NCBI GenBank assembly: GCA_034423135.1
Contig: DAOUJC010000005.1
Span: 33,985 to 97,984 of the forward strand
Reading direction: 5' to 3'
Length of the DNA stretch: 64,000 nt
DNA from: Dehalococcoidia bacterium
Lineage (GTDB): Bacteria; Chloroflexota; Dehalococcoidia; Lucifugimonadales; UBA2985
Each line of letters starts with the position of its first letter. Position 1 is the first letter of the stretch. Made by a program: the position numbers and the translations under genes. The notes beneath the pieces were generated by a model. That model was not told the DNA's origin and searched no databases. It worked only from the letters and a program-made list of their open reading frames with translations. Shown piece after piece: positions 15,200 through 34,270 of this stretch.

Positions 15200-17587
15200 T
15201 TACCAGGTAGAGGAGCCGTACAACCTGTCCCAGACTTCCTGCATCTTATTCTCTGCACCTGGCGGTGTGTGTCTCAAGAATGCCTCATATATGTCCCTAT
15301 CGCTATTGGGAACCTGACTAGCCAAGCTCGTGCGCTGAAGATCTCCCAAGGCTGCCACTACAGCCTCGAATCCAACCTCCCTCTCCAAGCTGAGCAGCAG
15401 GTGCAAGCCAATCTTAAACTTGCAGAAGGGCGGTATTCCTGGGCTGTCGACGAGGGCCTCCACAATCTGCAAGACCCCTTGGGACGTACAGTCATCCCTG
15501 ACCAGGTTTGTCACGCGGGTGTATACGTCCTGGTCAGCGTAGCCCTTCCACTTTTGTATATACTCACGGACGTACTCTGCGCCCGCCTCTCTAAACCACA
15601 GGGGACCTATTAGGTTATCGAAATAGGAATGGGCTACTTCGTGATTAATGACGTCCCGCATGCCTCTGTCGGATAGATTATCGACTATCTCGATACGTTG
15701 CCCCCCGTCGAAAGACTTCCCAGCGAAAGTAGGAGATCTGCCGTCATAGCCGTACTTCTGCACCGTGGCAACAACCAGTTCACTATGGGGGAACGGCTCC
15801 TCCATGAGCCGCTCCGCTCCCCTAGCGGCATCTTCAAGCCAATCCATGGCACCCTCCCAAGAGTTCATGCTGCCCTCAACCATCCACAGTTTGACCTCAC
15901 CTGCAAGCGGGAGTTCAATTGTCCTCAACTTAATCCTTCCCGCGTTTAGTTTCGGCCATTCTCGATAAGAGCCGTATTCACTACTCAGGCCGATAACATG
16001 AACCCTCTCCATGTCCGTCAGCCCGTCGACGAACCAGTCCGCAGCCATCATCTCTTCGAGGAGCTTGCGCCTCGTTTCCTGTTCCTCCAAGCCATATCCA
16101 AAGCTGCGCATCAGCATATTCTCAATGGGACTATACGGGCCGTCAGCCTCGTCCACTAGAAGGCTTAGGAGTTCAAAGGGATCGCGGTCAAGGGTATCGG
16201 CCACAGCCAAGATATTTCCCAATCCACGCATCTGCTGGACATCAGTGTAGGTTATGCCGTCCGTCACCCAAGCTTGGTCAAGGAGCCAGTTTCCCGCGAC
16301 GTCATAGTCTCTAATTGCATTAATTGCGCCGCGTTCGCTCTCCGTAATCCCATCTGCCACCCAAGGCAGTTCGATGAGCCTGACGCTCAGCTCCGGGGTA
16401 AACTCCGCCAAGTGTCTTATGATGCCGAGTGCGCCATGCTCGACATCTGTGATGCCATCTTGTAGCCAAGTGAAATGTACCAGCATGACTCCAGAGCCGC
16501 GATTGAAATGCTCCAGGTCTCTGATTTGAGTGACCGTATTAAATTCGGGCCCAGTCAAGTCGTCGAAGGCCCACTCTAGCTCGACGATACCAGGGAGCAC
16601 ATCCCGGTACGTTTCGGCAACGGAAGCCAAGACGTTTACCGTCCACGCCTCATCCCAATTGATGCCGTCGGTGAACCACCCCGCATTGAAGACTTGCTCA
16701 GCGAGGCGACTGTCGAGATCGTCCTCCGATCCGACAAAACTGCCAATGCCGTTGACTGCACTCAGTTCGTGCTCGTCCAAACCGTCAATGAACCAGGGAA
16801 GAGCAGCGATGTACCTAGCCGACTCAATGTCTTTGGACGCTACTCTCTCGAAGGCTCGGAGGTCAGTCAGCTCTTCACTGGTAACGACGCTCGCTAGCCA
16901 GGTAAAGGCAATTAGTTGACTGACCAGGTCAGTATCCATGTCAGCGATGCCCTGAAGACTCCGCAACAGGTCCACTTCTACTTGAGTTGCTTCGTCTACA
17001 ACCCAAGGCAATTGGGCAACTTCATGGCCGGCATCAGGATCGTAAAGGAAGATATCAATCAGTATCCCAACCGCATCGGCTGAAGCAGCTCCCTCGGGAT
17101 CCTCGAACCATGGAATCACTTGAGCCAGCTCAGAGGCAGCCACATCTCGGGGATTTGGTGTCGCCGTTGGAACTGGAGTGGGTGTGGCGGTAGGAGAAGG
17201 CACAGGAGTGGGCGTAGATGTCGGCGCGGGTGTGCTGGTGGGTGCGGGGGTAGGGGAGAGTGTGGGGGTGTTGGCGAGCGTTGGAGTAGGTGTGGGTGGG
17301 GGAGTGCTGGTGAGAGTTGGGGTAGGTGCGGGTGCGAGCGTGCTGGTCGGTAGTGGAACGGGAGTTGGGGTTCGCGTGGGAGTAGGCGAACTGGTAGGTA
17401 TAGGTACGGCGGAAGCTGTCGGCGCGTAGGCTGGTTCCGGATCCTGACCCCCCGGAGTTGAATCTGTCACTTGGGCGCCGTCTTCACATGCCATCGACGA
17501 CATTGCAATCATTAGGCACAGCGCTCCTAGATGCACTCCCCAACGGAGGTGCCCGCTCAGCCCGCTCGACGAAACGGAGGTCAGCAA
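15200..17587 (-). CDS. large repeat-containing lipoprotein with C-terminal HExxH metallopeptidase-like domain
   Basis: Lipobox-like SSMAC, Pro/Thr stalk, ~10 W-x-x-D-G-[IL]-T-x-x-E repeats, NHEVAH...WFREAGAEY; start uncertain (ORF opens at 17686). Confidence 0.75.
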
Positions 17588-17742
17588 TCCATTAACCCCC
17601 CCTAGTGTGGAATCACAGGAATTGCGTAGGAATTGGCTTGGAATTTCTTGGAATGATACGTGGGCGATTTGGCGCCTCAATCCCAAGAGAAGGATGCCTG
17701 AGGGACTATAGGATTCTCTTGACTAAGTGGAGCAACGTAGGC

Positions 17743-27476: not shown

Positions 27477-27480
<4 letters not shown>

Positions 27481-27848
27481 TTCCACTGGAGCACCCCCTT
27501 CTTCCAGCTGTAGACGATCCCGAAGAAGAGAATTGCGATGAACAGGAGCATCTCGTAGAACACGGCGTCGATGCTGGTGAGGAACACCACGGCCCACGGG
27601 AAGAGGAACACGGCCTCGACGTCGAAGATGAGGAACAGGATGGCGAATATGTAGTAGCGCATGTGGAGCTGCGACCAGGAGTAGGGTGCGGGCGGGATGC
27701 CGCACTCGTAGGGCATGTCCTTGAGGGGGGTGCGCTTCTTGGGCGAGAGGATGAAGGAGGCGCCGAACATGATCGCCATGCCCACAAACCCCACGATCCC
27801 TGCTATCACCACGGCGGTGTAGTTGAGGGCAAAGCCTTCAGGGGCCAA
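27477..27848 (-). CDS. nuoA: NADH-quinone oxidoreductase subunit A
   Basis: [35 protein letters not shown]. Confidence 0.95.
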
Positions 27849-28047
27849 TTGGTCCTCCAGACCGGCGGCCTGCGTTCGGCCGCCGTTACGGGGCTTGCAG
27901 ACTGGGCTAAGGATATATCACCGAATAGGGACTGTCAATTGAAGCATCCACCGCCGCCCTGGCCGCTCGTGATGAGCGATTCGAAGGGTGTAACCAATCT
28001 AGGGACGGAGACGCTCCGGAGAGACGACAGCAGCTGGGAGAACGTCG

Positions 28048-28269
28048 TCACGCAGTTACCTCAAGACGTTGCGGATCATCCACCGGAACAGGACGACCGC
28101 TCGCCTTGAGGTATTGCACCGCAACCTGCGCCGCGTCGCGTAATTCCTCAATGGCTTCTTCCTTGGTGTCGCCGAATGCCGTGCACCAGGGAATCGCAAG
28201 TAGCCATGCGCTCCATCGCCCATCCTCCTCCTCTTCCACGCCGATTGTGAAGCTATATGTGTCTTCCAT
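28048..28269 (-). CDS. HicB-like antitoxin (orphan)
   Basis: EEEEDGRWSAWLLAIPWCTAFGDTKEEAIEELRDA; no HicA ORF seen beside it. Confidence 0.8.
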   Translation of the reverse strand: MEDTYSFTIGVEEEEDGRWSAWLLAIPWCTAFGDTKEEAIEELRDAAQVAVQYLKASGRPVPVDDPQRLEVTA

Positions 28270-28398
28270 GCCAACCCCCTGTGCGAGTTAGGGTGCAGAT
28301 CTGCCTTTGGTCAATGCAATGCGCCAACATTCTATACCGGCAGTCAAACCATGCACAGATGCGCCGAGGTGCTATCCGACCACGTCCACGCGACCTTG

Positions 28399-28433
28399 CC
28401 GCTCGTGGTGAGCCTGTCGAACCATACGAGCGG
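28399..28433. repeat. REP-like hairpin (family A)
   Basis: CCGCTCGT-GGTGAGCCTGTCGAACC-ATACGAGCGG; relatives at 36964, 38896 and 39142. Confidence 0.7.
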
Positions 28434-28483
28434 GCGATTGCCTATGGTACAATCGGTCACAACACTTACGTAGGGTAAAGACT

Positions 28484-30514
28484 ATGAATCAGGACACTAT
28501 CGGTCTGGACTATCTCGAACGAGCCTTTGATGAAGGGCATGCCGAGATTACAGGCGATGGGCGGAACCAGCGCATCCGCTATATCGCCGCCGGCCGCTCA
28601 GAGCGGTGGAGCGACCCGGAGGAGAGAGTGCGGGCCGAGCTGTGGGCGGAGCTCATCTACAGGTACGAATACTCACCCGAACGAATAGGCTTCGAGGTCA
28701 ACGTTCCACGCCGGACTCCAAACGACTACGCCGACCTGGTCATCTACGAAGACGACGACCTGAAGTCACCCTACATGGTCTTTGAGTGCAAGCGCCCCGA
28801 CGTATCCGACGCCGCGTTTGGCCAGTCCATAGAACAGGCCTGCGGCAACCGAGCCAGCCTTGGCGCCAAGTATTGCGGCGCGGTGGCCGGTCTCACTCGC
28901 CGCCTGCTGCGCTTTGACCGCTACCCGCCAGCTGAGCGGGAGAGAAACCACATGACCGATATTCCCGTTCGCTACGGGAGCCCCCCATCCTGGCGCTTCT
29001 TGAAGAAAGTCCAAGGCCGTGATCTGACGACTGTTTCGCGGGAAGAGTTGCGGGCCGCCATCCGCAAGTGCCACCAGACCCTCTGGGAGGGCGGCAGGCG
29101 CAGTGCCATCGCCGCCTTTGGCGAGTTCTGCAAGCTGGTCTTCATCAAGCATCGTGATGAGAAGGATCTGGACCGGAAGGAAGGCCAGCATTATGAATTC
29201 CAGCGAAAGGACGGGGAAACTGCCCCCGACCTGGCCAGACGCATAACGATTCTGTATGAGAGCGAGAAGAGCAGGGAGCCGGACGTCTTTACCGAGAGCA
29301 TCAACGTAGATCCGCCCATTCTGGCGCAGTGCGTGGAACACCTGGAAGGCATTTCCCTTGAGCACACCGAGCTTGACACCAAAGGAGTGGCCTTCGAGGA
29401 ATTCATGGGCAGCTTCTTCAAGGGTGACTTCGGGCAGTACTTCACTCCCCGGGAGTTGATCGCTTTCTGCGTGGAAATGCTTGACCCGAAGCGCACCGAC
29501 CTAGTGCTCGACCCGGCCTGCGGCTCCGGCGGATTCCTGCTCTACGCAATGGACCACGTTCGCCGGGAGGCAGATCAAAGGTACTCTCCAGGCGGCGAAC
29601 AGCACCTCCTGTACTGGCACGACTTCGCCCAGAAGAACCTCTTTGGCATTGAGATAAACGATGAACTGGCCCGGGTCGCCAAGATGAACATGATCATTCA
29701 CGACGACGGCCATACCAACATCGTTGGCCACGACGCCCTGGACTTCTCTGAGAACATTCGCAGCAAGAATAGCGGCGTCGACCTACGCAAATTCGATCTC
29801 ATCCTCACCAACCCGCCCTTCGGCGCAGTCGTAAAGCGCACGGAGAAGGGGGACGGCTACCTAGAGCAGTTCGACTTGAGGCATTACCTGGGCAAGAGCT
29901 ATCCAGTATATTCCGACATGACGGGAGAAGACGGCGACTCCAGCGCGAAGACGGGCGCAAGAGCAGTAAGAGCACGGGCCAGCATCAAGACCGAGCTCCT
30001 GTTCCTGGAGCGGGTTCACTCCTTCCTGAAGCCCGGCACGGGCCGGGCTGCCGTGGTGGTGCCGGACGGCATCCTGACCAACTCATCGCTTCAGGGCGTG
30101 AGGCATTGGCTGCTCGAGAACTTCCAGCTTCTGGCGGTGGTCAGCCTGCCCCAGTTCGCCTTCAGCCACTACGACGCCGGTGTGAAGGCCAGCATAATAT
30201 TCCTGCGCCGCTTAGCCGATGGCGAAACAGTCTCAGACAATGAAGCCATATTCATGGCCCTGGCCGAGAACATCGGGTACGACGCCACCGGGCGCAAGAC
30301 ATTTGACGTTTCCGTGGAGCGGGAGGAGCCGGGCGTGGAGAAGGTTGAGCGGCACAGCTGCGACCTGTTCGACTACCGCGTATATTACGAACCCGTCTCC
30401 ACGAATCTCTTTGAAACCAATTGGAGCGAGCGCCGTAGGGAAACCATACCAGGCACCGGCATAGTGGCCCAGTGGCAGGCCTTCCAGCGGGAACCGACAC
30501 CTTTTTTAGTGTAG
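28484..30514 (+). CDS. restriction-modification protein: HsdR-N-like nuclease domain fused to N6-adenine methyltransferase
   Basis: N-terminal PEERVR...ADLVIY...FECKR nuclease motif; GQYFTPR, DPACGSGGFL, NPPFG. Confidence 0.88.
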   Translation: MNQDTIGLDYLERAFDEGHAEITGDGRNQRIRYIAAGRSERWSDPEERVRAELWAELIYRYEYSPERIGFEVNVPRRTPNDYADLVIYEDDDLKSPYMVFECKRPDVSDAAFGQSIEQACGNRASLGAKYCGAVAGLTRRLLRFDRYPPAERERNHMTDIPVRYGSPPSWRFLKKVQGRDLTTVSREELRAAIRKCHQTLWEGGRRSAIAAFGEFCKLVFIKHRDEKDLDRKEGQHYEFQRKDGETAPDLARRITILYESEKSREPDVFTESINVDPPILAQCVEHLEGISLEHTELDTKGVAFEEFMGSFFKGDFGQYFTPRELIAFCVEMLDPKRTDLVLDPACGSGGFLLYAMDHVRREADQRYSPGGEQHLLYWHDFAQKNLFGIEINDELARVAKMNMIIHDDGHTNIVGHDALDFSENIRSKNSGVDLRKFDLILTNPPFGAVVKRTEKGDGYLEQFDLRHYLGKSYPVYSDMTGEDGDSSAKTGARAVRARASIKTELLFLERVHSFLKPGTGRAAVVVPDGILTNSSLQGVRHWLLENFQLLAVVSLPQFAFSHYDAGVKASIIFLRRLADGETVSDNEAIFMALAENIGYDATGRKTFDVSVEREEPGVEKVERHSCDLFDYRVYYEPVSTNLFETNWSERRRETIPGTGIVAQWQAFQREPTPFLV

Positions 30515-31914
30515 ACCCCGCCAGACTGGCAAAGCCGGAAAGCTTTGCGGTGAAGCGGGGCAAAGTTGTCGGAAGGTTAGATACATGGTTCAATCATCCC
30601 CGGTATGAGTTGCTGCGCGCCAGATTGGACGCTTCAATAGTCAAAACGACCGAGTTGGACGGTTTCCTGTGGTCAATAGCCGGCGGTGCAACGCCAAAAC
30701 TAAGTGATGCTTCTCTCTACACCGATTCCGGGATTAAGTTCCTACGCATCCTCAACGTAGAAGATGGCGAGATTATTGAGCAGGATATCAAATACATCAC
30801 CGATGCGGTTCATCAAGAGGAACTTGGGCGTTCCCAGCTTGAAGCTGGCGACGTGCTTATCACAATTACGGGGCGTGTAGGTTCAGCCGCAGTAATTCGC
30901 GAAGAGCATCTTCCAGCCAACATCAATCAGCACATTGCTCGACTGAGGATTGATTTGAAACGCTGCAGGCCGGAGTTCCTCAGTGAATGGTTGAACTGCC
31001 CCGCTGGGCAACAGCTGTCCAATCGCTCTGTCTCTGGAGGCACACGCCCCGCTCTTGACTATGGAGCTGTTCGCAGCATCCTAGTGCCGTTGCCTGATAC
31101 GCTGGAAGCGCAAGACAAGCTATTGGTCGCGATGGATGCCTCCCGTGCGAAGCGCAAGGCAAAGCTAGCTGAGGCAATCGCACTACTGGCAAGTCTAGAT
31201 GATTTCGTGCTGGACGCGCTAGGTATTGCACCACCGGAGAAGGACTCCAGACGTGCGTTTGCAGTAACGCTTGGCCAGTCACGCACCCAGGGACAGCTTA
31301 ATGCGGACTTCTACCATCCGGAGCGTATTCGGACCTTAGACGAATTGAACAATGCGGGAATGCATACGGAACTGACGCCACTTGCTAAAGTCGTGAATTT
31401 TGAGCGAGCACAGATCAAGTCACCGGATGAGAATTACCTGAGTCTAGCGCACGTGGAAAGCCATACCGGCGAACTGACTGACTCCCAGGATAAGGCGTCA
31501 GGCAATGCCTTTATGTTCCAAGTCGATGATGTTCTATTTGCTCGATTGCGTCCCTACCTTAACAAGGTATATCACGCTGAAATGAATGGCACTTGCTCAA
31601 CGGAGTTCCACGTCCTTCGGGTCAAGGATCGGAATACTCTGCTACCTGAGTATCTCAGCACCATCCTACGCAGCCGTTTGATACTGGCTCAAACTGTCCA
31701 CATGATGACCGGTAACACCCACCCGCGTCTAGTCAACGCTCACGTAGAGAGCCTTCGAATCCCTATTCCCAAGGTGAATGTTCAAAAGACCATCGCAGTG
31801 GACGTTGCGGTTCGGCGCGAGGAGGCACGCCGTTTGCGCGCCGAAGCGGAGGCGGGCTGGCAGGAGGCCAAGCGGTGGTTCGAGGAGCAACTGTTGGGAG
31901 CGGATTCGCCATGA
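30472..31914 (+). CDS. hsdS: restriction-modification specificity subunit (two TRDs)
   Basis: GGATP...ILNV, ITGRVG, NINQH; second TRD FARLRPYLNKV, CSTEF, GNTHPR; helical spacers; start uncertain. Confidence 0.85.
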   Translation: MAGLPAGTDTFFSVDPARLAKPESFAVKRGKVVGRLDTWFNHPRYELLRARLDASIVKTTELDGFLWSIAGGATPKLSDASLYTDSGIKFLRILNVEDGEIIEQDIKYITDAVHQEELGRSQLEAGDVLITITGRVGSAAVIREEHLPANINQHIARLRIDLKRCRPEFLSEWLNCPAGQQLSNRSVSGGTRPALDYGAVRSILVPLPDTLEAQDKLLVAMDASRAKRKAKLAEAIALLASLDDFVLDALGIAPPEKDSRRAFAVTLGQSRTQGQLNADFYHPERIRTLDELNNAGMHTELTPLAKVVNFERAQIKSPDENYLSLAHVESHTGELTDSQDKASGNAFMFQVDDVLFARLRPYLNKVYHAEMNGTCSTEFHVLRVKDRNTLLPEYLSTILRSRLILAQTVHMMTGNTHPRLVNAHVESLRIPIPKVNVQKTIAVDVAVRREEARRLRAEAEAGWQEAKRWFEEQLLGADSP

Positions 31915-32741
31915 CATTTGAGATTCTCATTTCCTGTCACATGCCACCGAACGATGGTCTTGCGGGCATAAGCGAGATGTTGGAGGATGCGCTGAATCAG
32001 GCCTTGGAGTATAGCCCAATAGACTTTGATGAGAGCATGATCCAGATTCACTGCCAGCGGCCGCTAAACGAGGCACCGGCCGACAGAGGCAACCTCCTAG
32101 TCGGTTTCTCTCTGGAACTGCCGGAAGATGACGCTGGAATCAAGTCCGTGGTTGACGGCTTTGTTGGGGCCCTAAGGGACAGGTCAGAAGTCATGCATCT
32201 AGTGCGGTTTGAAGATCCACTCCTTCAAGCCGAACTATCTAAGTGGGCCGCCGAGATTTTCTCGCTGGAGATGAAACTGCGCCGAGTGCTGTCTTTCATT
32301 TATCTGCACGCGTATCAGGTCAGCAATCCCTTCGAGCTACTTCAAGAAGAGCAGGTTCAAATACCACAAGGTGTGAAACCACAAGAGACACAAATGAACA
32401 ACCTTAGCGAGAACGAGTTTTTTCACTTGACGTTCAGCCAGTACATAGGCCTAAACCAGCGCCGCCAAATAGACCTCCGCCACATAGTAGGCATAATCCT
32501 TGATTCGGAGCAATACGGCGATTTACGTCAAGAACTCATGCGGTCTCCAGTATCAGACGGGCGCGATACCGAACTCATGAATAACTTGCAGCAACACTTG
32601 AATGCTATTGAGCGGATGCGCAACTGTGTGGCCCATAACAGAAGACCCAGCGAGGGAATAAGACAAGATTACTCGTTTAATCGCCCTCGCCTGGAAGAAC
32701 TACTGGATAGCTATTTGGCAAGCCTGGCTATTCAACATTAG
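31911..32741 (+). CDS. HEPN-domain protein (putative RNase)
   Basis: LEMKLRRVL helix and C-terminal RNCVAH (Rx4H); ATGA overlap with hsdS. Confidence 0.65.
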   Translation: MTFEILISCHMPPNDGLAGISEMLEDALNQALEYSPIDFDESMIQIHCQRPLNEAPADRGNLLVGFSLELPEDDAGIKSVVDGFVGALRDRSEVMHLVRFEDPLLQAELSKWAAEIFSLEMKLRRVLSFIYLHAYQVSNPFELLQEEQVQIPQGVKPQETQMNNLSENEFFHLTFSQYIGLNQRRQIDLRHIVGIILDSEQYGDLRQELMRSPVSDGRDTELMNNLQQHLNAIERMRNCVAHNRRPSEGIRQDYSFNRPRLEELLDSYLASLAIQH

Positions 32742-32872
32742 TCCCGCCCCAGCCCTTGACCCGCCCGCAACGTTGGTAATACAATCCCCCTGCAACCCAC
32801 GTTGCCCTTGGAAGGGAGCTCTTGAGCAAGGTGACCTTTCCGACCGGGGTGGAGGCGGCTGGGGATCGGGAC

Positions 32873-34270
32873 ATGCCGCAGGAGAACTGCGGTGTTGTCG
32901 GCGTATATGCACCCGGCGAGGACGTGGGGCGCATCGCCTTCTTCGGACTGTTCGCCCTGCAGCACCGCGGCCAGGAGAGCGCCGGCATTGCCGTCAGCGA
33001 CGGTGAATCCCTCCGACACAGCACCGCCATGGGACTGGTCGCCCAGGCATTCCGCGAGGAAGACCTCCAGCGGCTCACCGGCCACATGGCCATAGGGCAC
33101 ACCCGGTACTCCACCGCCGGCTCCAGCATCCTCTGCAACGCCCAGCCCATCCTCGCCAGCGGCCCATACGGCGAACTGGCCCTGGGCCACAACGGCAACG
33201 TGGTCAACGCCGTGCCCCTGCGAAAGGAACTCGAGGAGTGGGGCTGCCGCTTCTCATCCACCTCCGACTCGGAGATCGTGGCGCTTCTCCTCGCCAACGC
33301 ACCGGGCCGCGACTGGTCAGAGCGCATTCAGTATCTCATGCGTCGCCTGCAGGGCGCATACTCCCTGGTGGTTCTTACCAAAGACTCGCTAATCGCCATT
33401 CGAGACCCACTCGGCGTGCGGCCCATGTGCGTGGGCAGGATGAACGGCGGCTGGATCGTGGCGTCGGAGAGCTGCGCTCTCGACCACCTTGGCGCCACAC
33501 TGCTCCGCGATATCGAGCCCGGCGAGGCCATCGTCATCGATGACCAGGGCATGAGGACGCTCTACCGCGGCGGCGAGCGCAGCCGCGCCTTCTGCGTATT
33601 CGAGTACATCTACTTCGCACGGCCCGACAGCGTCCTGGGAGGCCGGCTGACCTACTCGCTGCGCCAAGAGATGGGCGCTCAGCTTGCGAAGGAGCACCCC
33701 GTGGACGCGGACGTGGTCATCGGCGTGCCGGACTCCGCTACGGCGGCGGCAGTGGGCTACGCCCGGGAGGCCGGCATCCCGTACAGCGAGGGGCTGCTCA
33801 AGAACCGCTACGTGGGACGCACCTTCATCGAGCCGGACCAGCGTGTCCGCGATTTGGGAGTCCAGCTCAAGTTCAACACCCTGCCTGAAGTGCTGGCCGG
33901 AAAGCGCGTTGTTGTCGTCGACGACAGCATCGTCAGGGGCACCACGACGCCACACGTCGTGCGCCTGGTCAGACGGGCCGGCGCCACGGAGGTACACCTG
34001 CGCGTGTGCGCTCCACCCATCAGGCACCCCTGCCAGCTTGGCGTGGACATGGCCTCCTACCGCGAGCTCATCGCCGCCAACAAGAGCGTGGAAGAGATCC
34101 AGGAGTTCGTGGGCGCCGACTCGCTCGGCTACCTGAGCGTGGATGGGCTGCTTGAGACCGTGAGTAGCGACGGTAACTCGCACTGCGCGGGCTGCTTCAC
34201 CGGCAATCACCCCATACCCGTCCAGCTGGAGATGAACAAGCTGGCCCTCGAAGTCCCGGCCCTGGGATGA
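32873..34270 (+). CDS. purF: amidophosphoribosyltransferase
   Basis: ENCGVVG, ALQHRGQESAG, GHTRYST, HNGN, VDDSIVRGTT. Confidence 0.97.
   Translation: MPQENCGVVGVYAPGEDVGRIAFFGLFALQHRGQESAGIAVSDGESLRHSTAMGLVAQAFREEDLQRLTGHMAIGHTRYSTAGSSILCNAQPILASGPYGELALGHNGNVVNAVPLRKELEEWGCRFSSTSDSEIVALLLANAPGRDWSERIQYLMRRLQGAYSLVVLTKDSLIAIRDPLGVRPMCVGRMNGGWIVASESCALDHLGATLLRDIEPGEAIVIDDQGMRTLYRGGERSRAFCVFEYIYFARPDSVLGGRLTYSLRQEMGAQLAKEHPVDADVVIGVPDSATAAAVGYAREAGIPYSEGLLKNRYVGRTFIEPDQRVRDLGVQLKFNTLPEVLAGKRVVVVDDSIVRGTTTPHVVRLVRRAGATEVHLRVCAPPIRHPCQLGVDMASYRELIAANKSVEEIQEFVGADSLGYLSVDGLLETVSSDGNSHCAGCFTGNHPIPVQLEMNKLALEVPALG

What the first reader, a model, noticed from the sequence alone, without database searches (positions are those of the whole stretch)
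28484..32741. Defence cassette: nuclease-methylase fusion + specificity subunit + translationally coupled HEPN RNase candidate
Seen: a three-gene overlapping operon of lower GC, inserted between nuo and pur, with no helicase HsdR. The third ORF has an E-x-x-L-R helix and RNCVAH (Rx4H). Known: RM-fusion + S resembles type IIB/IIG-like systems; HEPN RNases such as PrrC/RloC act as abortive back-ups to R-M. Inference: a compact R-M system guarded by a HEPN effector with an unrecognised ~110-aa N-terminal sensor domain.
Basis: partly seen in the sequence, partly recalled or inferred. Interest (0 to 1): 0.7.

Follow-up and report, generated by a model that had tools for sequence, protein, structure and literature searches.

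The report
Restriction enzyme cassette with RNase partner
A mobile three-gene cassette encodes a BcgI/BsaXI-like (type IIB) restriction-modification enzyme and a third, unannotated protein that looks like a toxic RNase and is found almost only beside this kind of enzyme, so it is probably a back-up anti-phage weapon, a variant of an idea proposed in 2013.

Summary
Three same-strand overlapping genes (28484-30514, 30472-31914, 31911-32741) form a low-GC island between nuoA and purF.

- **ORF1** is an RM fusion. Its best solved relative is the type IIB enzyme RM.BsaXI. All four BsaXI nuclease catalytic residues and the methylase motifs are conserved.
- **ORF2** is a two-domain HsdS-like specificity subunit.
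- **ORF3** (276 aa) has no Pfam, NCBIfam or PADLOC match above threshold. It belongs to a small family of 386 clusters with an invariant RNCVAH motif. The model shows a ferredoxin-like N-terminal domain and a helical C-terminal domain. Some relatives reach the Abi_2 (AbiD/AbiF, HEPN) threshold. Fold searches did not confirm the HEPN fold.

Linkage:
- In 43 of 46 genomes from many bacterial phyla and DPANN archaea, ORF3 homologs sit directly downstream of RM and S homologs. The other three are decayed remnants.
- The S/ORF3 junction is usually an ATGA overlap.
- ORF1 and ORF3 divergence correlate (rho 0.84).
- RM+S can occur without ORF3.
- The RNA antitoxin motif of canonical AbiF is absent.

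The most likely function is a PrrC/Ronin-like RNase back-up held in check by protein contacts, but this is inference. HEPN genes in R-M operons were described in 2013, so I rate this a new variant of a known kind, of moderate interest.

The parts
28484..30514 (+). ORF1, RM subunit (676 aa): N-terminal PD-(D/E)xK nuclease domain (aa ~45-131; catalytic E71, D84, E101, K103), helical connector, and gamma-class N6-adenine methyltransferase (motif I DPACGSGGF at aa 343, motif IV NPPFG at aa 443)
   Evidence: Pfam HSDR_N_2 6e-10 and N6_Mtase 2e-36. PADLOC MTase_I PDLC03030 5e-115. PDB RM.BsaXI 8w0p 1.8e-29. Catalytic residues and motifs are 99-100% conserved in 110 homologs.
30472..31914 (+). ORF2, HsdS-like specificity subunit (480 aa, two target-recognition domains). 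It overlaps the ORF1 3' end by 43 nt.
   Evidence: Pfam Methylase_S, two stretches. Many PADLOC Specificity_I models, best 4.6e-37. PDB type I S subunits 2e-15. Identity to homologs varies from 24 to 67%, as expected if the recognition domains are swapped.
31911..32741 (+). ORF3 (276 aa): accessory protein of an unannotated family, a candidate Abi2-like HEPN RNase. Its start overlaps the ORF2 stop (ATGA).
   Evidence: No Pfam, NCBIfam or PADLOC hit above threshold. At least 512 homologs, and 386 clusters at 50% identity. AF2 model mean pLDDT 84. Near-obligate linkage to RM+S.
31911..32210 (+). ORF3 N-terminal domain (aa 1-100): beta-alpha-beta-beta-alpha-beta ferredoxin-like fold, function unknown
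   Evidence: DSSP of the model: E2-10, H16-32, E44-51, E61-69, H77-89, E94-99. Foldseek PDB best matches are ribosomal protein S6, PII and ACT-like folds, E 7e-4 and weaker, which indicates only a generic fold.
32217..32726 (+). ORF3 C-terminal helical domain (aa 103-272): Abi_2-like, putative HEPN
   Evidence: Relatives P0062 and P0085 match Pfam Abi_2 positions 24/51-181 of 184 above the gathering score. 12 of 37 members match at E<0.01. The window protein itself scores only 12.9 bits.
32268..32285 (+). Invariant EMKLRR (aa 120-125) in the long helix 103-135. E120 is a candidate for the conserved acidic residue of HEPN active sites.
   Evidence: Invariant in the 37-sequence alignment.
32619..32636 (+). 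RNCVAH (R237-H242): the Rx4H motif, at the end of helix 217-241 and the start of the loop before the last helix
   Evidence: R237, N238, C239, A241, H242 and R244 are invariant. Position in the model. The family profile aligns the motif to WRNSVAHGGR of Csx1 8y7f.
28048..28269 (-). HicB-like small ORF (73 aa) in the same low-GC stretch. It may be part of the inserted island and is not part of the conserved cassette.
   Evidence: Pfam HicB_lk_antitox E 5e-4, below threshold. No homolog in the related loci.

Best explanation
The locus is a horizontally mobile three-gene anti-phage cassette.

ORF1 and ORF2 encode a BcgI/BsaXI-like type IIB restriction-modification enzyme. By analogy with BsaXI it would assemble as (RM)2S. 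It would methylate a bipartite site set by the two recognition domains of S, and cut unmodified DNA with the N-terminal PD-(D/E)xK domain, without a helicase.

ORF3 is a dedicated accessory protein of this enzyme clade. It has a ferredoxin-like N-terminal domain followed by a divergent Abi2-like HEPN domain, with R237/N238/H242 and probably E120 forming an RNase site. It is made in fixed proportion to S through translational coupling.

I propose that ORF3 is held inactive by protein contacts, either with the RM-S complex, or with its own N-terminal domain, or both, and not by the RNA antitoxin that canonical AbiF uses. It would be released as an RNase when the restriction enzyme is blocked or overwhelmed, for example by a phage anti-restriction protein. 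RNA cleavage would then stop translation and abort the infection, as with PrrC/EcoprrI and Ronin.

Shown: gene content, catalytic-residue conservation, operon architecture, near-obligate linkage and co-divergence. Inferred: complex formation, RNase activity, the trigger and the abortive outcome.
For: RM identity: with BsaXI mutagenesis of E73/D90/E105/K107 in PMC11997821. S identity.

ORF3 HEPN-like features:
- Invariant RNCVAH and EMKLRR.
- The motif lies at the end of the penultimate helix, as the HEPN definition in PMC3710099 requires.
- Abi_2 is above the gathering score in 2 relatives and at E<0.01 in 12 of 37.
- Weak hits go only to HEPN families: Csx1 8y7f, AbiD and CARF_HEPN.

Linkage:
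- 43 of 46 genome loci have RM-S-ORF3 in the same order and strand, across Chloroflexota, Proteobacteria, Cyanobacteria, Planctomycetota, Bacteroidota, Poribacteria and DPANN archaea. The other three are remnants.
- ATGA overlap in 24 of 38 junctions, and a 1-2 nt gap in 11.
- ORF1 and ORF3 identity correlate, Spearman rho 0.84, n=36.

Asymmetry: RM+S occurs without ORF3. ORF3 is present in 19 of 23 close ORF1 relatives and 7 of 29 distant ones. In the more distant relatives the slot after S often holds other effector-like genes, including other Rx4H proteins, an OLD-type ATPase-nuclease and a DUF4365 protein.

Mobility and defence context: no related locus shares the flanks. L128 lies in an integrase/transposase/AbiEii island and L130 lies next to TIR genes.

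No RNA antitoxin: no abiF motif RF03085 in the window at E<=5 or in 7 related loci, and the ATGA overlap leaves no intergenic space upstream of ORF3.

Precedents for the mechanism: PrrC/EcoprrI and the general HEPN-R-M proposal (PMC3710099), and Ronin (bioRxiv 10.1101/2023.04.06.535777).
Against: - No experiment bears on this family.
- The HEPN fold was not confirmed. Foldseek hits with the full model are dominated by the N-terminal domain. The C-terminal-only model was poor (pLDDT 65) and gave no significant match.
- The window protein and the family consensus are below the Abi_2 threshold.
- A whole-library profile search stays within 386 clusters and does not reach the canonical Abi_2 family.
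- In L129 the RM gene is split by IS elements and S is truncated, yet ORF3 is intact. This argues against RM-S being an indispensable antitoxin and favours autoinhibition or weak expression.
- Restriction activity and cutting on both sides of the site are untested. PADLOC's best model files ORF1 as a type I methyltransferase.
Confidence: 0.55

Rival explanations
1. ORF3 is a self-contained abortive-infection toxin. Its own N-terminal domain would regulate it, sensing a phage product or a metabolite, and it would only share an operon and mobility with the R-M genes. There would be no physical or regulatory tie to the RM-S complex.
For: ORF3 stays intact in L129, where RM and S are disrupted. 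The ferredoxin-like N-terminal domain resembles ligand-binding or regulatory modules such as PII and ACT only at fold level. Canonical AbiD/AbiF proteins act without R-M partners (PMC13064643).
Against: No intact stand-alone ORF3 homolog was found in 46 genome loci. The exceptions are remnants. Translational coupling to S and co-divergence with ORF1 go beyond what defence-island clustering predicts.
Confidence: 0.2
2. ORF3 is a non-catalytic subunit or regulator of the restriction enzyme, for example one that tunes cleavage against methylation or controls establishment. The helical domain would bind nucleic acid or protein rather than cleave RNA.
For: The HEPN fold is unconfirmed. Some HEPN-like proteins, such as MtlR, are non-catalytic (PMC3710099). 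Coupling and co-divergence fit a structural subunit.
Against: R, N and H of the Rx4H motif are invariant across the family, which is typical of active HEPN RNases. RM+S cassettes lacking ORF3 are common, so the enzyme does not need it. BsaXI is active as (RM)2S alone (PMC11997821).
Confidence: 0.12
3. ORF3 is a canonical AbiF-type type III toxin, neutralised by a small RNA encoded nearby, for example inside the 3' end of the S gene.
For: The only protein-family links are to Abi_2/AbiD, whose characterised members use an upstream RNA antitoxin (PMC12373285; PMC13064643).
Against: No abiF motif (RF03085) was found in window 27800-33000 at E<=5 or in seven related loci. The ATGA overlap with S leaves no upstream intergenic region. 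Only 80 nt lie downstream before purF, and they contain a promoter-like site.
Confidence: 0.05
4. The cassette is only an orphan methyltransferase plus specificity subunit with a vestigial nuclease domain, and ORF3 is an unrelated hitch-hiker.
For: PADLOC and NCBIfam models class ORF1 with type I and MADS methyltransferases. No cleavage data exist.
Against: The nuclease tetrad is 99-100% conserved in 110 homologs spread over many phyla, which implies selection on catalysis. ORF3 linkage is near-obligate.
Confidence: 0.05

Closest known systems
BsaXI / BcgI type IIB restriction-modification enzymes (RM fusion + S; (RM)2S)
   Same: N-terminal PD-(D/E)xK nuclease, helical connector and gamma-class N6A methylase in one chain. 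A separate HsdS-like subunit with two recognition domains. No helicase. BsaXI catalytic E73/D90/E105/K107 align with E71/D84/E101/K103.
   Different: ORF1 is 676 aa against 916 aa for BsaXI, and the HMMER match ends at chain residue 627 of 916, so the C-terminal 'paddle' region is not matched. The sequence relation is distant (E 1.8e-29). The papers read describe no third, coupled gene for BsaXI or BcgI. Cutting on both sides of the site is untested here.
PrrC anticodon nuclease with the EcoprrI type Ic R-M system
   Same: A HEPN RNase gene embedded in an R-M operon. The proposed logic is the same: the RNase is kept latent by the R-M proteins and released when a phage blocks restriction (PMC3710099).
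   Different: PrrC has an ABC-ATPase N-domain, whereas ORF3 has a ferredoxin-like one. EcoprrI is a helicase-dependent type I hsdMSR system, whereas this one is type IIB-like. No sequence relation was detected.
Ronin (HsdM + HsdS + 61-aa RonA), triggered by Ocr/ArdA/Aop1
   Same: An M and S pair without HsdR plus a tightly linked effector. The effector is always found with hsdM/hsdS and is neutralised by M-S co-expression (bioRxiv 10.1101/2023.04.06.535777).
   Different: RonA is a 61-aa membrane peptide, whereas ORF3 is a 276-aa soluble putative RNase. The Ronin methylase has no nuclease domain, whereas ORF1 keeps an intact one. So this cassette is probably a working restriction enzyme rather than a pure decoy.
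AbiD/AbiD1/AbiF group (Pfam Abi_2, 'Abi2'), HEPN toxins of type III toxin-antitoxin systems
   Same: Closest protein family. The RNxxAH motif is shared. A few ORF3 relatives exceed the Abi_2 gathering score over nearly the whole model. Abi2 is listed as 'embedded in R-M operons' in PMC3710099.
   Different: The window protein scores 12.9 bits against a cut-off of 25.6. There is an extra N-terminal ferredoxin-like domain. There is no upstream abiF RNA motif and no room for one. Linkage to one R-M clade is obligate.
MADS (methylation-associated defence system) MAD2/MAD5
   Same: ORF1 and ORF2 give partial hits to the MAD2 methylase and the MAD5 S subunit.
   Different: Scores are far below the curated cut-offs (293 against 720, and 74.7 against 400). 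Only three genes lie between nuoA and purF, so the other mad genes are absent.

Membership tests
Type IIB R-M (BcgI/BsaXI-like) | Single RM polypeptide with N-terminal PD-(D/E)xK nuclease followed by a gamma-class N6-adenine methyltransferase | tested here: met
   Pfam HSDR_N_2 45-131 and N6_Mtase. RM.BsaXI match over residues 45-582. DPACGSGGF and NPPFG conserved.
Type IIB R-M (BcgI/BsaXI-like) | Nuclease catalytic tetrad (BsaXI E73, D90, E105, K107), reported as conserved in all type IIB enzymes | tested here: met
   Aligned to E71, D84, E101, K103. 99-100% conserved in 110 homologs. Mutagenesis data in PMC11997821.
Type IIB R-M (BcgI/BsaXI-like) | Separate HsdS-like subunit with two target-recognition domains, and no helicase/translocase subunit | tested here: met
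   Two Methylase_S stretches. No helicase next to the cassette here or in L128/L130.
Type IIB R-M (BcgI/BsaXI-like) | Cuts both strands on both sides of a bipartite recognition site | not testable with these tools
   Needs in vitro digestion with the purified RM+S.
HEPN superfamily | Conserved Rx4-6H motif | tested here: met
   R237-N-C-V-A-H242 is invariant in 37 sequences.
HEPN superfamily | [quoted passage not shown] | tested here: met
   In the model, helix 217-241 ends in RNCVA, H242 starts the loop, and the last helix is 248-272. Invariant E120 lies in helix 103-135. This rests on a predicted structure.
HEPN superfamily | Four-helix-bundle fold similar to solved HEPN domains | tested here: inconclusive
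   Foldseek PDB with the full model lists only N-terminal-domain matches in the top 50. The C-terminal-only model has pLDDT 65 and no hit at E<0.9, with Csx1-Crn2 8y7g at rank 33, E 4.9. The sequence profile hits Csx1 8y7f at E 0.011.
HEPN superfamily | Metal-independent RNase activity | not testable with these tools
   Requires biochemistry.
Pfam Abi_2 (AbiD/AbiF group) | Score at or above the PF07751 gathering threshold (25.6 bits) | tested here: not met
   Window protein 12.9 bits. Family consensus 15.3 bits. Relatives P0062 and P0085 reach 27.8 and 28.9 bits. ORF3 is therefore a neighbouring family, not a member.
Pfam Abi_2 (AbiD/AbiF group) | Upstream non-coding RNA antitoxin carrying abiF motifs (Rfam RF03085) | tested here: not met
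   No match in window 27800-33000 at E<=5 or in 7 related loci. ORF3 overlaps the S gene.
PrrC/RloC anticodon nucleases | N-terminal ABC-ATPase fused to the HEPN domain, and for PrrC a position inside a type Ic hsdMSR operon | tested here: not met
   The N-terminal domain is a ~100-aa ferredoxin-like fold with no ATPase hit. No hsdR is present.
Ronin | hsdM + hsdS lacking any nuclease, plus a 61-aa transmembrane effector RonA | tested here: not met
   ORF1 keeps an intact nuclease domain. The effector is 276 aa, and the model shows a folded two-domain alpha/beta plus helical protein. Ronin is described.
MADS | MAD2 and MAD5 above the NCBIfam cut-offs, with the other mad genes present | tested here: not met
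   293 against 720 bits, and 74.7 against 400 bits. The island holds only three genes plus a HicB-like ORF.

The most novel reading that the evidence does not exclude
ORF3 is a stoichiometric fourth component of a type IIB restriction holoenzyme. It would be an Abi2-derived HEPN RNase whose RNA antitoxin has been replaced by protein caging, through its ferredoxin-like domain docking on the (RM)2S complex. One particle would then both restrict DNA and, when a phage inhibitor or DNA mimic binds it, switch to RNA cleavage and abort the infection. The position after S in this R-M clade would be a general, exchangeable effector slot, filled elsewhere by other Rx4H proteins, an OLD-type nuclease, or DUF4365 and DGQHR-like proteins.
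Probability: 0.3. Interest if true: 0.75.

Novelty: new variant of a known kind. Interest (0 to 1): 0.55.

Why it matters
It would add a widespread, compact module (bacteria and DPANN archaea) to the few cases where a restriction enzyme is wired to a suicide effector. PrrC/EcoprrI and Ronin are the only ones I found with experimental support.

It would be the first such link I could find for a type IIB enzyme. A full-text search for type IIB with HEPN and abortive infection returned nothing.

It would also show an Abi2-like HEPN toxin controlled without the RNA antitoxin now regarded as typical of that group. That bears on how these toxins, proposed as ancestors of Cas13, are regulated.

On the practical side, the ORF3 family is invisible to Pfam, NCBIfam and PADLOC v2. 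Current defence-annotation tools would therefore call these loci methylase plus S subunit and miss the effector. At about 4.3 kb the cassette is small enough to test directly in E. coli.

Tried and rejected
- **Fold confirmation of HEPN.** Foldseek against PDB with the full model returned only ferredoxin-like matches to the N-terminal domain. A second prediction of residues 99-276 alone was poor (pLDDT 65) and gave no significant PDB match. BFVD gave nothing useful.
- **Sequence searches against PDB.** The single sequence gave nothing. The family profile gave only Csx1 at E 0.011.
- **Pfam with the family consensus.** Abi_2 scored only E 0.025. PHROGs gave nothing.
- **Canonical AbiF for a profile-profile comparison.** I tried to fetch one from plasmid pNP40, using an accession recalled from memory, but it is not in the collection. 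No hhalign against true Abi_2 was done.
- **Other third-gene family.** hhalign of the ORF3 family against the RRNxFFH proteins gave probability 3.9%, so no relation is detectable.
- **MADS membership.** Rejected on scores.
- **RNA antitoxin.** Rejected on Rfam scans.
- **Insertion scars.** I looked for tRNA-free island scars. The only notable repeat is a 31-nt direct pair around the HicB-like ORF. No repeat pair brackets the whole cassette. No terminator-like sites were found.
- **Possible helicase.** A long ORF at 15203-17722 (-) with DEAD/GKS strings has no Pfam hit and is probably spurious.
- **Viral contigs.** Only one related locus among 2.9 million contigs, so the cassette is not typically phage-borne.

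Full report

Yes. The window carries three same-strand ORFs: 28484-30514 (676 aa), 30472-31914 (480 aa) and 31875/31911-32741 (288/276 aa).
- ORF1 and ORF2 overlap by 43 nt.
- The ORF2 stop and the ATG at 31911 form an ATGA overlap.
- Homologs all begin MTFEF..., so 31911 is the true start of ORF3.
- GC drops from 0.62-0.67 in the flanking nuo and pur genes to 0.49-0.56 over 30250-32750.
- The cassette lies between nuoA (27477-27848, -) and purF (32822-34270, +).
- A 73-aa HicB-like ORF (28048-28269, -) sits in the same low-GC stretch.
- No helicase gene is adjacent. The only DEAD-containing long ORF in the window has no Pfam match and is probably spurious.

**2. ORF1 and ORF2: a type IIB-like restriction-modification enzyme**

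ORF1 combines Pfam HSDR_N_2 (aa 45-131) with N6_Mtase. Its best solved relative is RM.BsaXI, a type IIB enzyme (8w0p, E 1.8e-29, residues 45-582).

The BsaXI cryo-EM paper shows an (RM)2S assembly. Alanine substitution of E73, D90, E105 or K107 abolishes cleavage, and the authors state these four residues are conserved across type IIB enzymes (PMC11997821). In the HMMER alignment they correspond to ORF1 E71, D84, E101 and K103.

In an alignment of ORF1 with 109 homologs from the fetched loci, these residues are 99-100% conserved. So are methylase motif I (DPACGSGGF) and motif IV (NPPFG).

ORF2 has two Methylase_S domains and matches many type I specificity models and solved HsdS chains.

PADLOC's best model for ORF1 is a 'type I methyltransferase' (PDLC03030, 5e-115). 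NCBIfam gives sub-threshold hits to the MADS proteins MAD2 and MAD5. I reject MADS membership on score and gene content.

The architecture meets every testable criterion of a BcgI/BsaXI-like type IIB system. Cutting on both sides of the site cannot be tested here.

**3. ORF3: what it is**

No Pfam, NCBIfam or PADLOC model reaches threshold. The only trace is Abi_2 at E 0.13 over the RNCVAH region.

The family is real but compact:
- At least 512 relatives in the 90%-clustered database.
- 386 clusters at 50% identity at E<=1e-3 among 1.84 billion representatives.

In 37 aligned members, EMKLRR (120-125), N168, F170, F171 and R237-N-C-x-A-H242-x-R244 are invariant.

The AlphaFold model (mean pLDDT 84) shows two parts:
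- An N-terminal beta-alpha-beta-beta-alpha-beta domain (aa 1-100).
- A helical C-terminal part: helices 103-135, 217-241 and 248-272, with a less ordered middle.

The N-terminal domain matches only generic ferredoxin-like folds such as ribosomal protein S6, PII and ACT-like domains (best E 7e-4).

The Rx4H motif sits at the end of the penultimate helix and the start of the following loop. That is the position the HEPN definition specifies (PMC3710099).

Sequence links point only to HEPN families:
- 12 of 37 members hit Abi_2 at E<0.01.
- Two members exceed the gathering score, with matches that span model positions 24/51-181 of 184.
- The family profile aligns its motif with WRNSVAHGGR of Csx1 (8y7f, E 0.011).
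- A few members give weak PADLOC hits to AbiD and CARF_HEPN.
- One relative is named 'Abi family protein' by NCBI.

Against this:
- The fold searches did not return HEPN structures.
- The family consensus scores only 15 bits on Abi_2.
- The whole-library profile search does not bridge to canonical Abi_2 proteins.

I therefore call ORF3 a probable (about 0.8) divergent Abi2-like HEPN protein. It is not a member of Pfam Abi_2.

**4. Linkage to the R-M genes**

A scan of one genome per species found 46 loci encoding ORF3 relatives.
- In 43 of them, ORF1 and/or ORF2 homologs lie immediately upstream, in the same order and on the same strand.
- The loci span Chloroflexota, Beta- and Deltaproteobacteria, Binatia, Gemmatimonadota, Latescibacterota, Acidobacteriota, Planctomycetota, Cyanobacteria, Ignavibacteria, Poribacteria, Bacteroidota, Cloacimonadota, Paceibacterota and DPANN archaea.
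- The three exceptions are decayed remnants: a 130-aa fragment, a 38-aa match, and a copy beside what looks like an S-gene remnant.

The S/ORF3 junction is an ATGA overlap in 24 of 38 resolvable cases and a 1-2 nt gap in 11.

Identity of ORF1 and ORF3 to the window proteins co-varies (Spearman rho 0.84, n=36). S varies more, as expected if recognition domains are swapped.

None of the related loci shares the nuo/pur flanks. Examples of context:
- L128 lies in an island with AlpA, a transposase, AbiEii and an integrase.
- L130 lies beside TIR-domain genes.

The cassette is therefore mobile and keeps defence-island company. It is almost absent from viral contigs, with one locus.

**5. The reverse question: does RM+S need ORF3?**

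No. I seeded a metagenome scan with ORF1, which is blind to ORF3. Among evaluable loci:
- ORF3 is present in 19 of 23 with ORF1 at least 59% identical.
- ORF3 is present in only 7 of 29 more distant ones.

In several of the more distant loci without ORF3, the gene after S is a different effector-like gene:
- A 225-245-aa family with an invariant RRNxFFH (also Rx4H), again usually overlapping the S stop by 4 nt, in four loci. It shows no profile-level relation to ORF3.
- Small RNxxAH proteins with weak Abi_2 and RiboL-PSP-HEPN hits (L116, L120).
- A 496-aa protein with a DGNHR motif (L098, L100).
- An OLD-type AAA_15+TOPRIM protein (L107).
- A DUF4365 protein (L125).

In other such loci the next gene looks like ordinary cellular or mobile-element content, for example a sigma-54-type regulator, an SMC protein or an IS transposase.

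So ORF3 depends on RM+S but not the reverse. The position after S often behaves like an exchangeable accessory slot.

**6. How it most likely works**

*Shown.* The locus encodes an intact-looking type IIB-like enzyme, plus a co-inherited, translationally coupled protein with an invariant HEPN-type motif.

*Inferred.* ORF3 is an RNase that serves as a second line of defence.

Three precedents support this inference:
- PrrC is kept latent by the EcoprrI R-M proteins and is released by the T4 Stp peptide. On that basis Anantharaman et al. proposed the same logic for at least 16 HEPN clades linked to R-M systems, and listed Abi2/AbiF/AbiD as 'embedded in R-M operons' (PMC3710099).
- Ronin is an HsdM-HsdS pair with a tightly linked 61-aa effector. 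The effector is neutralised by M-S co-expression, and the system is triggered by the anti-restriction proteins Ocr, ArdA and Aop1 (bioRxiv 10.1101/2023.04.06.535777).
- Canonical AbiF proteins are bacteriostatic HEPN toxins held in check by an upstream RNA with abiF motifs (PMC12373285, PMC13064643).

ORF3 differs from AbiF in two ways. There is no abiF motif in the window or in seven related loci, and there is no intergenic space upstream. Control must therefore be by protein, either the N-terminal domain, the RM-S complex, or both.

One observation tempers the strict 'RM-S is the antitoxin' version. In L129 the RM gene is broken by IS elements and S is truncated, yet ORF3 is intact. This suggests ORF3 is not constitutively lethal on its own.

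My estimates:
- About 0.55 for the R-M-coupled RNase back-up.
- About 0.2 for a self-contained Abi toxin that merely travels with the R-M genes.
- About 0.12 for a non-catalytic subunit or regulator.
- About 0.05 each for an undetected RNA antitoxin and for an orphan methylase with a hitch-hiker.

**7. Comparison with what is known, and novelty**

The idea of a HEPN effector wired to an R-M system has been in the literature since 2013.

What appears new:
- A discrete protein family that current Pfam, NCBIfam, PADLOC and PHROGs models do not capture.
- Near-obligate, translationally coupled association with one clade of type IIB-like RM+S enzymes. I found no paper combining type IIB, HEPN and abortive infection.
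- An Abi2-like domain preceded by a ferredoxin-like domain and lacking the RNA antitoxin.
- Hints of an exchangeable effector slot after S.

I rate it a new variant of a known kind, with interest about 0.55. It is a clean, testable 4.3-kb module rather than a conceptual surprise.

**8. Limits**

- All functional statements about ORF3 are inference.
- The HEPN fold rests on sequence motifs and a predicted secondary-structure layout.
- Restriction activity is inferred from conserved catalytic residues.
- Loci counts depend on pattern-seeded scans (RNCVAHNR and EMKLRR peptides for ORF3), which favour conserved members of the family.

Noticed in passing
window 28048-28269 (-), with repeats at 27955-27985 and 28391-28421: An orphan HicB-like antitoxin ORF (73 aa, Pfam HicB_lk_antitox E 5e-4, below threshold) with no HicA-like partner ORF nearby. 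It is bracketed by a 31-nt direct repeat (81% identity, 436 nt apart). It lies in the same low-GC stretch as the cassette but is absent from all related loci.
   Followed up: partly
L080:4267-4956, L085:9230-9901, L090:9277-9966, L095:3915-4586: In related RM+S cassettes that lack ORF3, the gene after S is a different 223-230-aa family with an invariant RRNxFFH (Rx4H) motif. It usually overlaps the S stop by 4 nt. It has no Pfam hit and no profile-level relation to ORF3 (hhalign probability 3.9%). It may be a second unannotated HEPN-like partner of this R-M clade.
   Followed up: partly
L098:8635-10125, L100:9201-10691, L107:8078-9841, L116:8102-8626, L120:3872-4438, L125:9202-9930: Other genes occupy the position after S in more distant RM+S loci: a 496-aa protein with a DGNHR motif (two loci), an OLD-type AAA_15+TOPRIM protein, two small RNxxAH proteins with weak Abi_2 and RiboL-PSP-HEPN hits, and a DUF4365 protein. 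This suggests an exchangeable effector slot.
   Followed up: partly
proteins P0045, P0080, P0091, P0120 (e.g. locus L003): About a third of the listed ORF3 homologs are ~385 aa long. They carry an extra conserved C-terminal domain of about 100 aa (…WD..AREAVE…YAN…GE…ECDEYGV…) with no Pfam match. The window protein lacks it.
   Followed up: no
L129:1-10846; also L023, L043, L013, L015: Decaying copies of the cassette. In L129 the RM gene is split by IS elements and S is truncated while ORF3 is intact. In L023 the ORF3 match is split by about 1.2 kb of intervening sequence. In L043 RM and ORF3 are fragmented. This bears on whether ORF3 is toxic without RM-S.
   Followed up: partly
window 30472-30514 and the same junction in related loci (e.g. 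L001 8568-8610): The 43-nt overlap between the 3' end of the RM gene and the predicted GTG start of S recurs at the same length in many loci. The true S start was not established.
   Followed up: no
L001:11822-13321 (-): In the closest genome locus (Dehalococcoidia MAG, ORF1 83% identical) a complete 16S rRNA gene lies about 1 kb downstream of the cassette.
   Followed up: no
window 15203-17722 (-): An 840-codon open frame containing DEAD and GKS strings has no Pfam match at E<=0.001. It is probably a spurious long ORF in high-GC DNA, not a helicase.
   Followed up: partly
window 32756-32785 (+): A sigma-70-like promoter match (TTGACC, 18 nt, TACAAT; 10 of 12) lies in the 80-nt gap between the ORF3 stop and purF. 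It is a candidate purF promoter, which suggests purF may be transcribed independently of the inserted cassette. No terminator-like site was found anywhere in 27800-32900.
   Followed up: no
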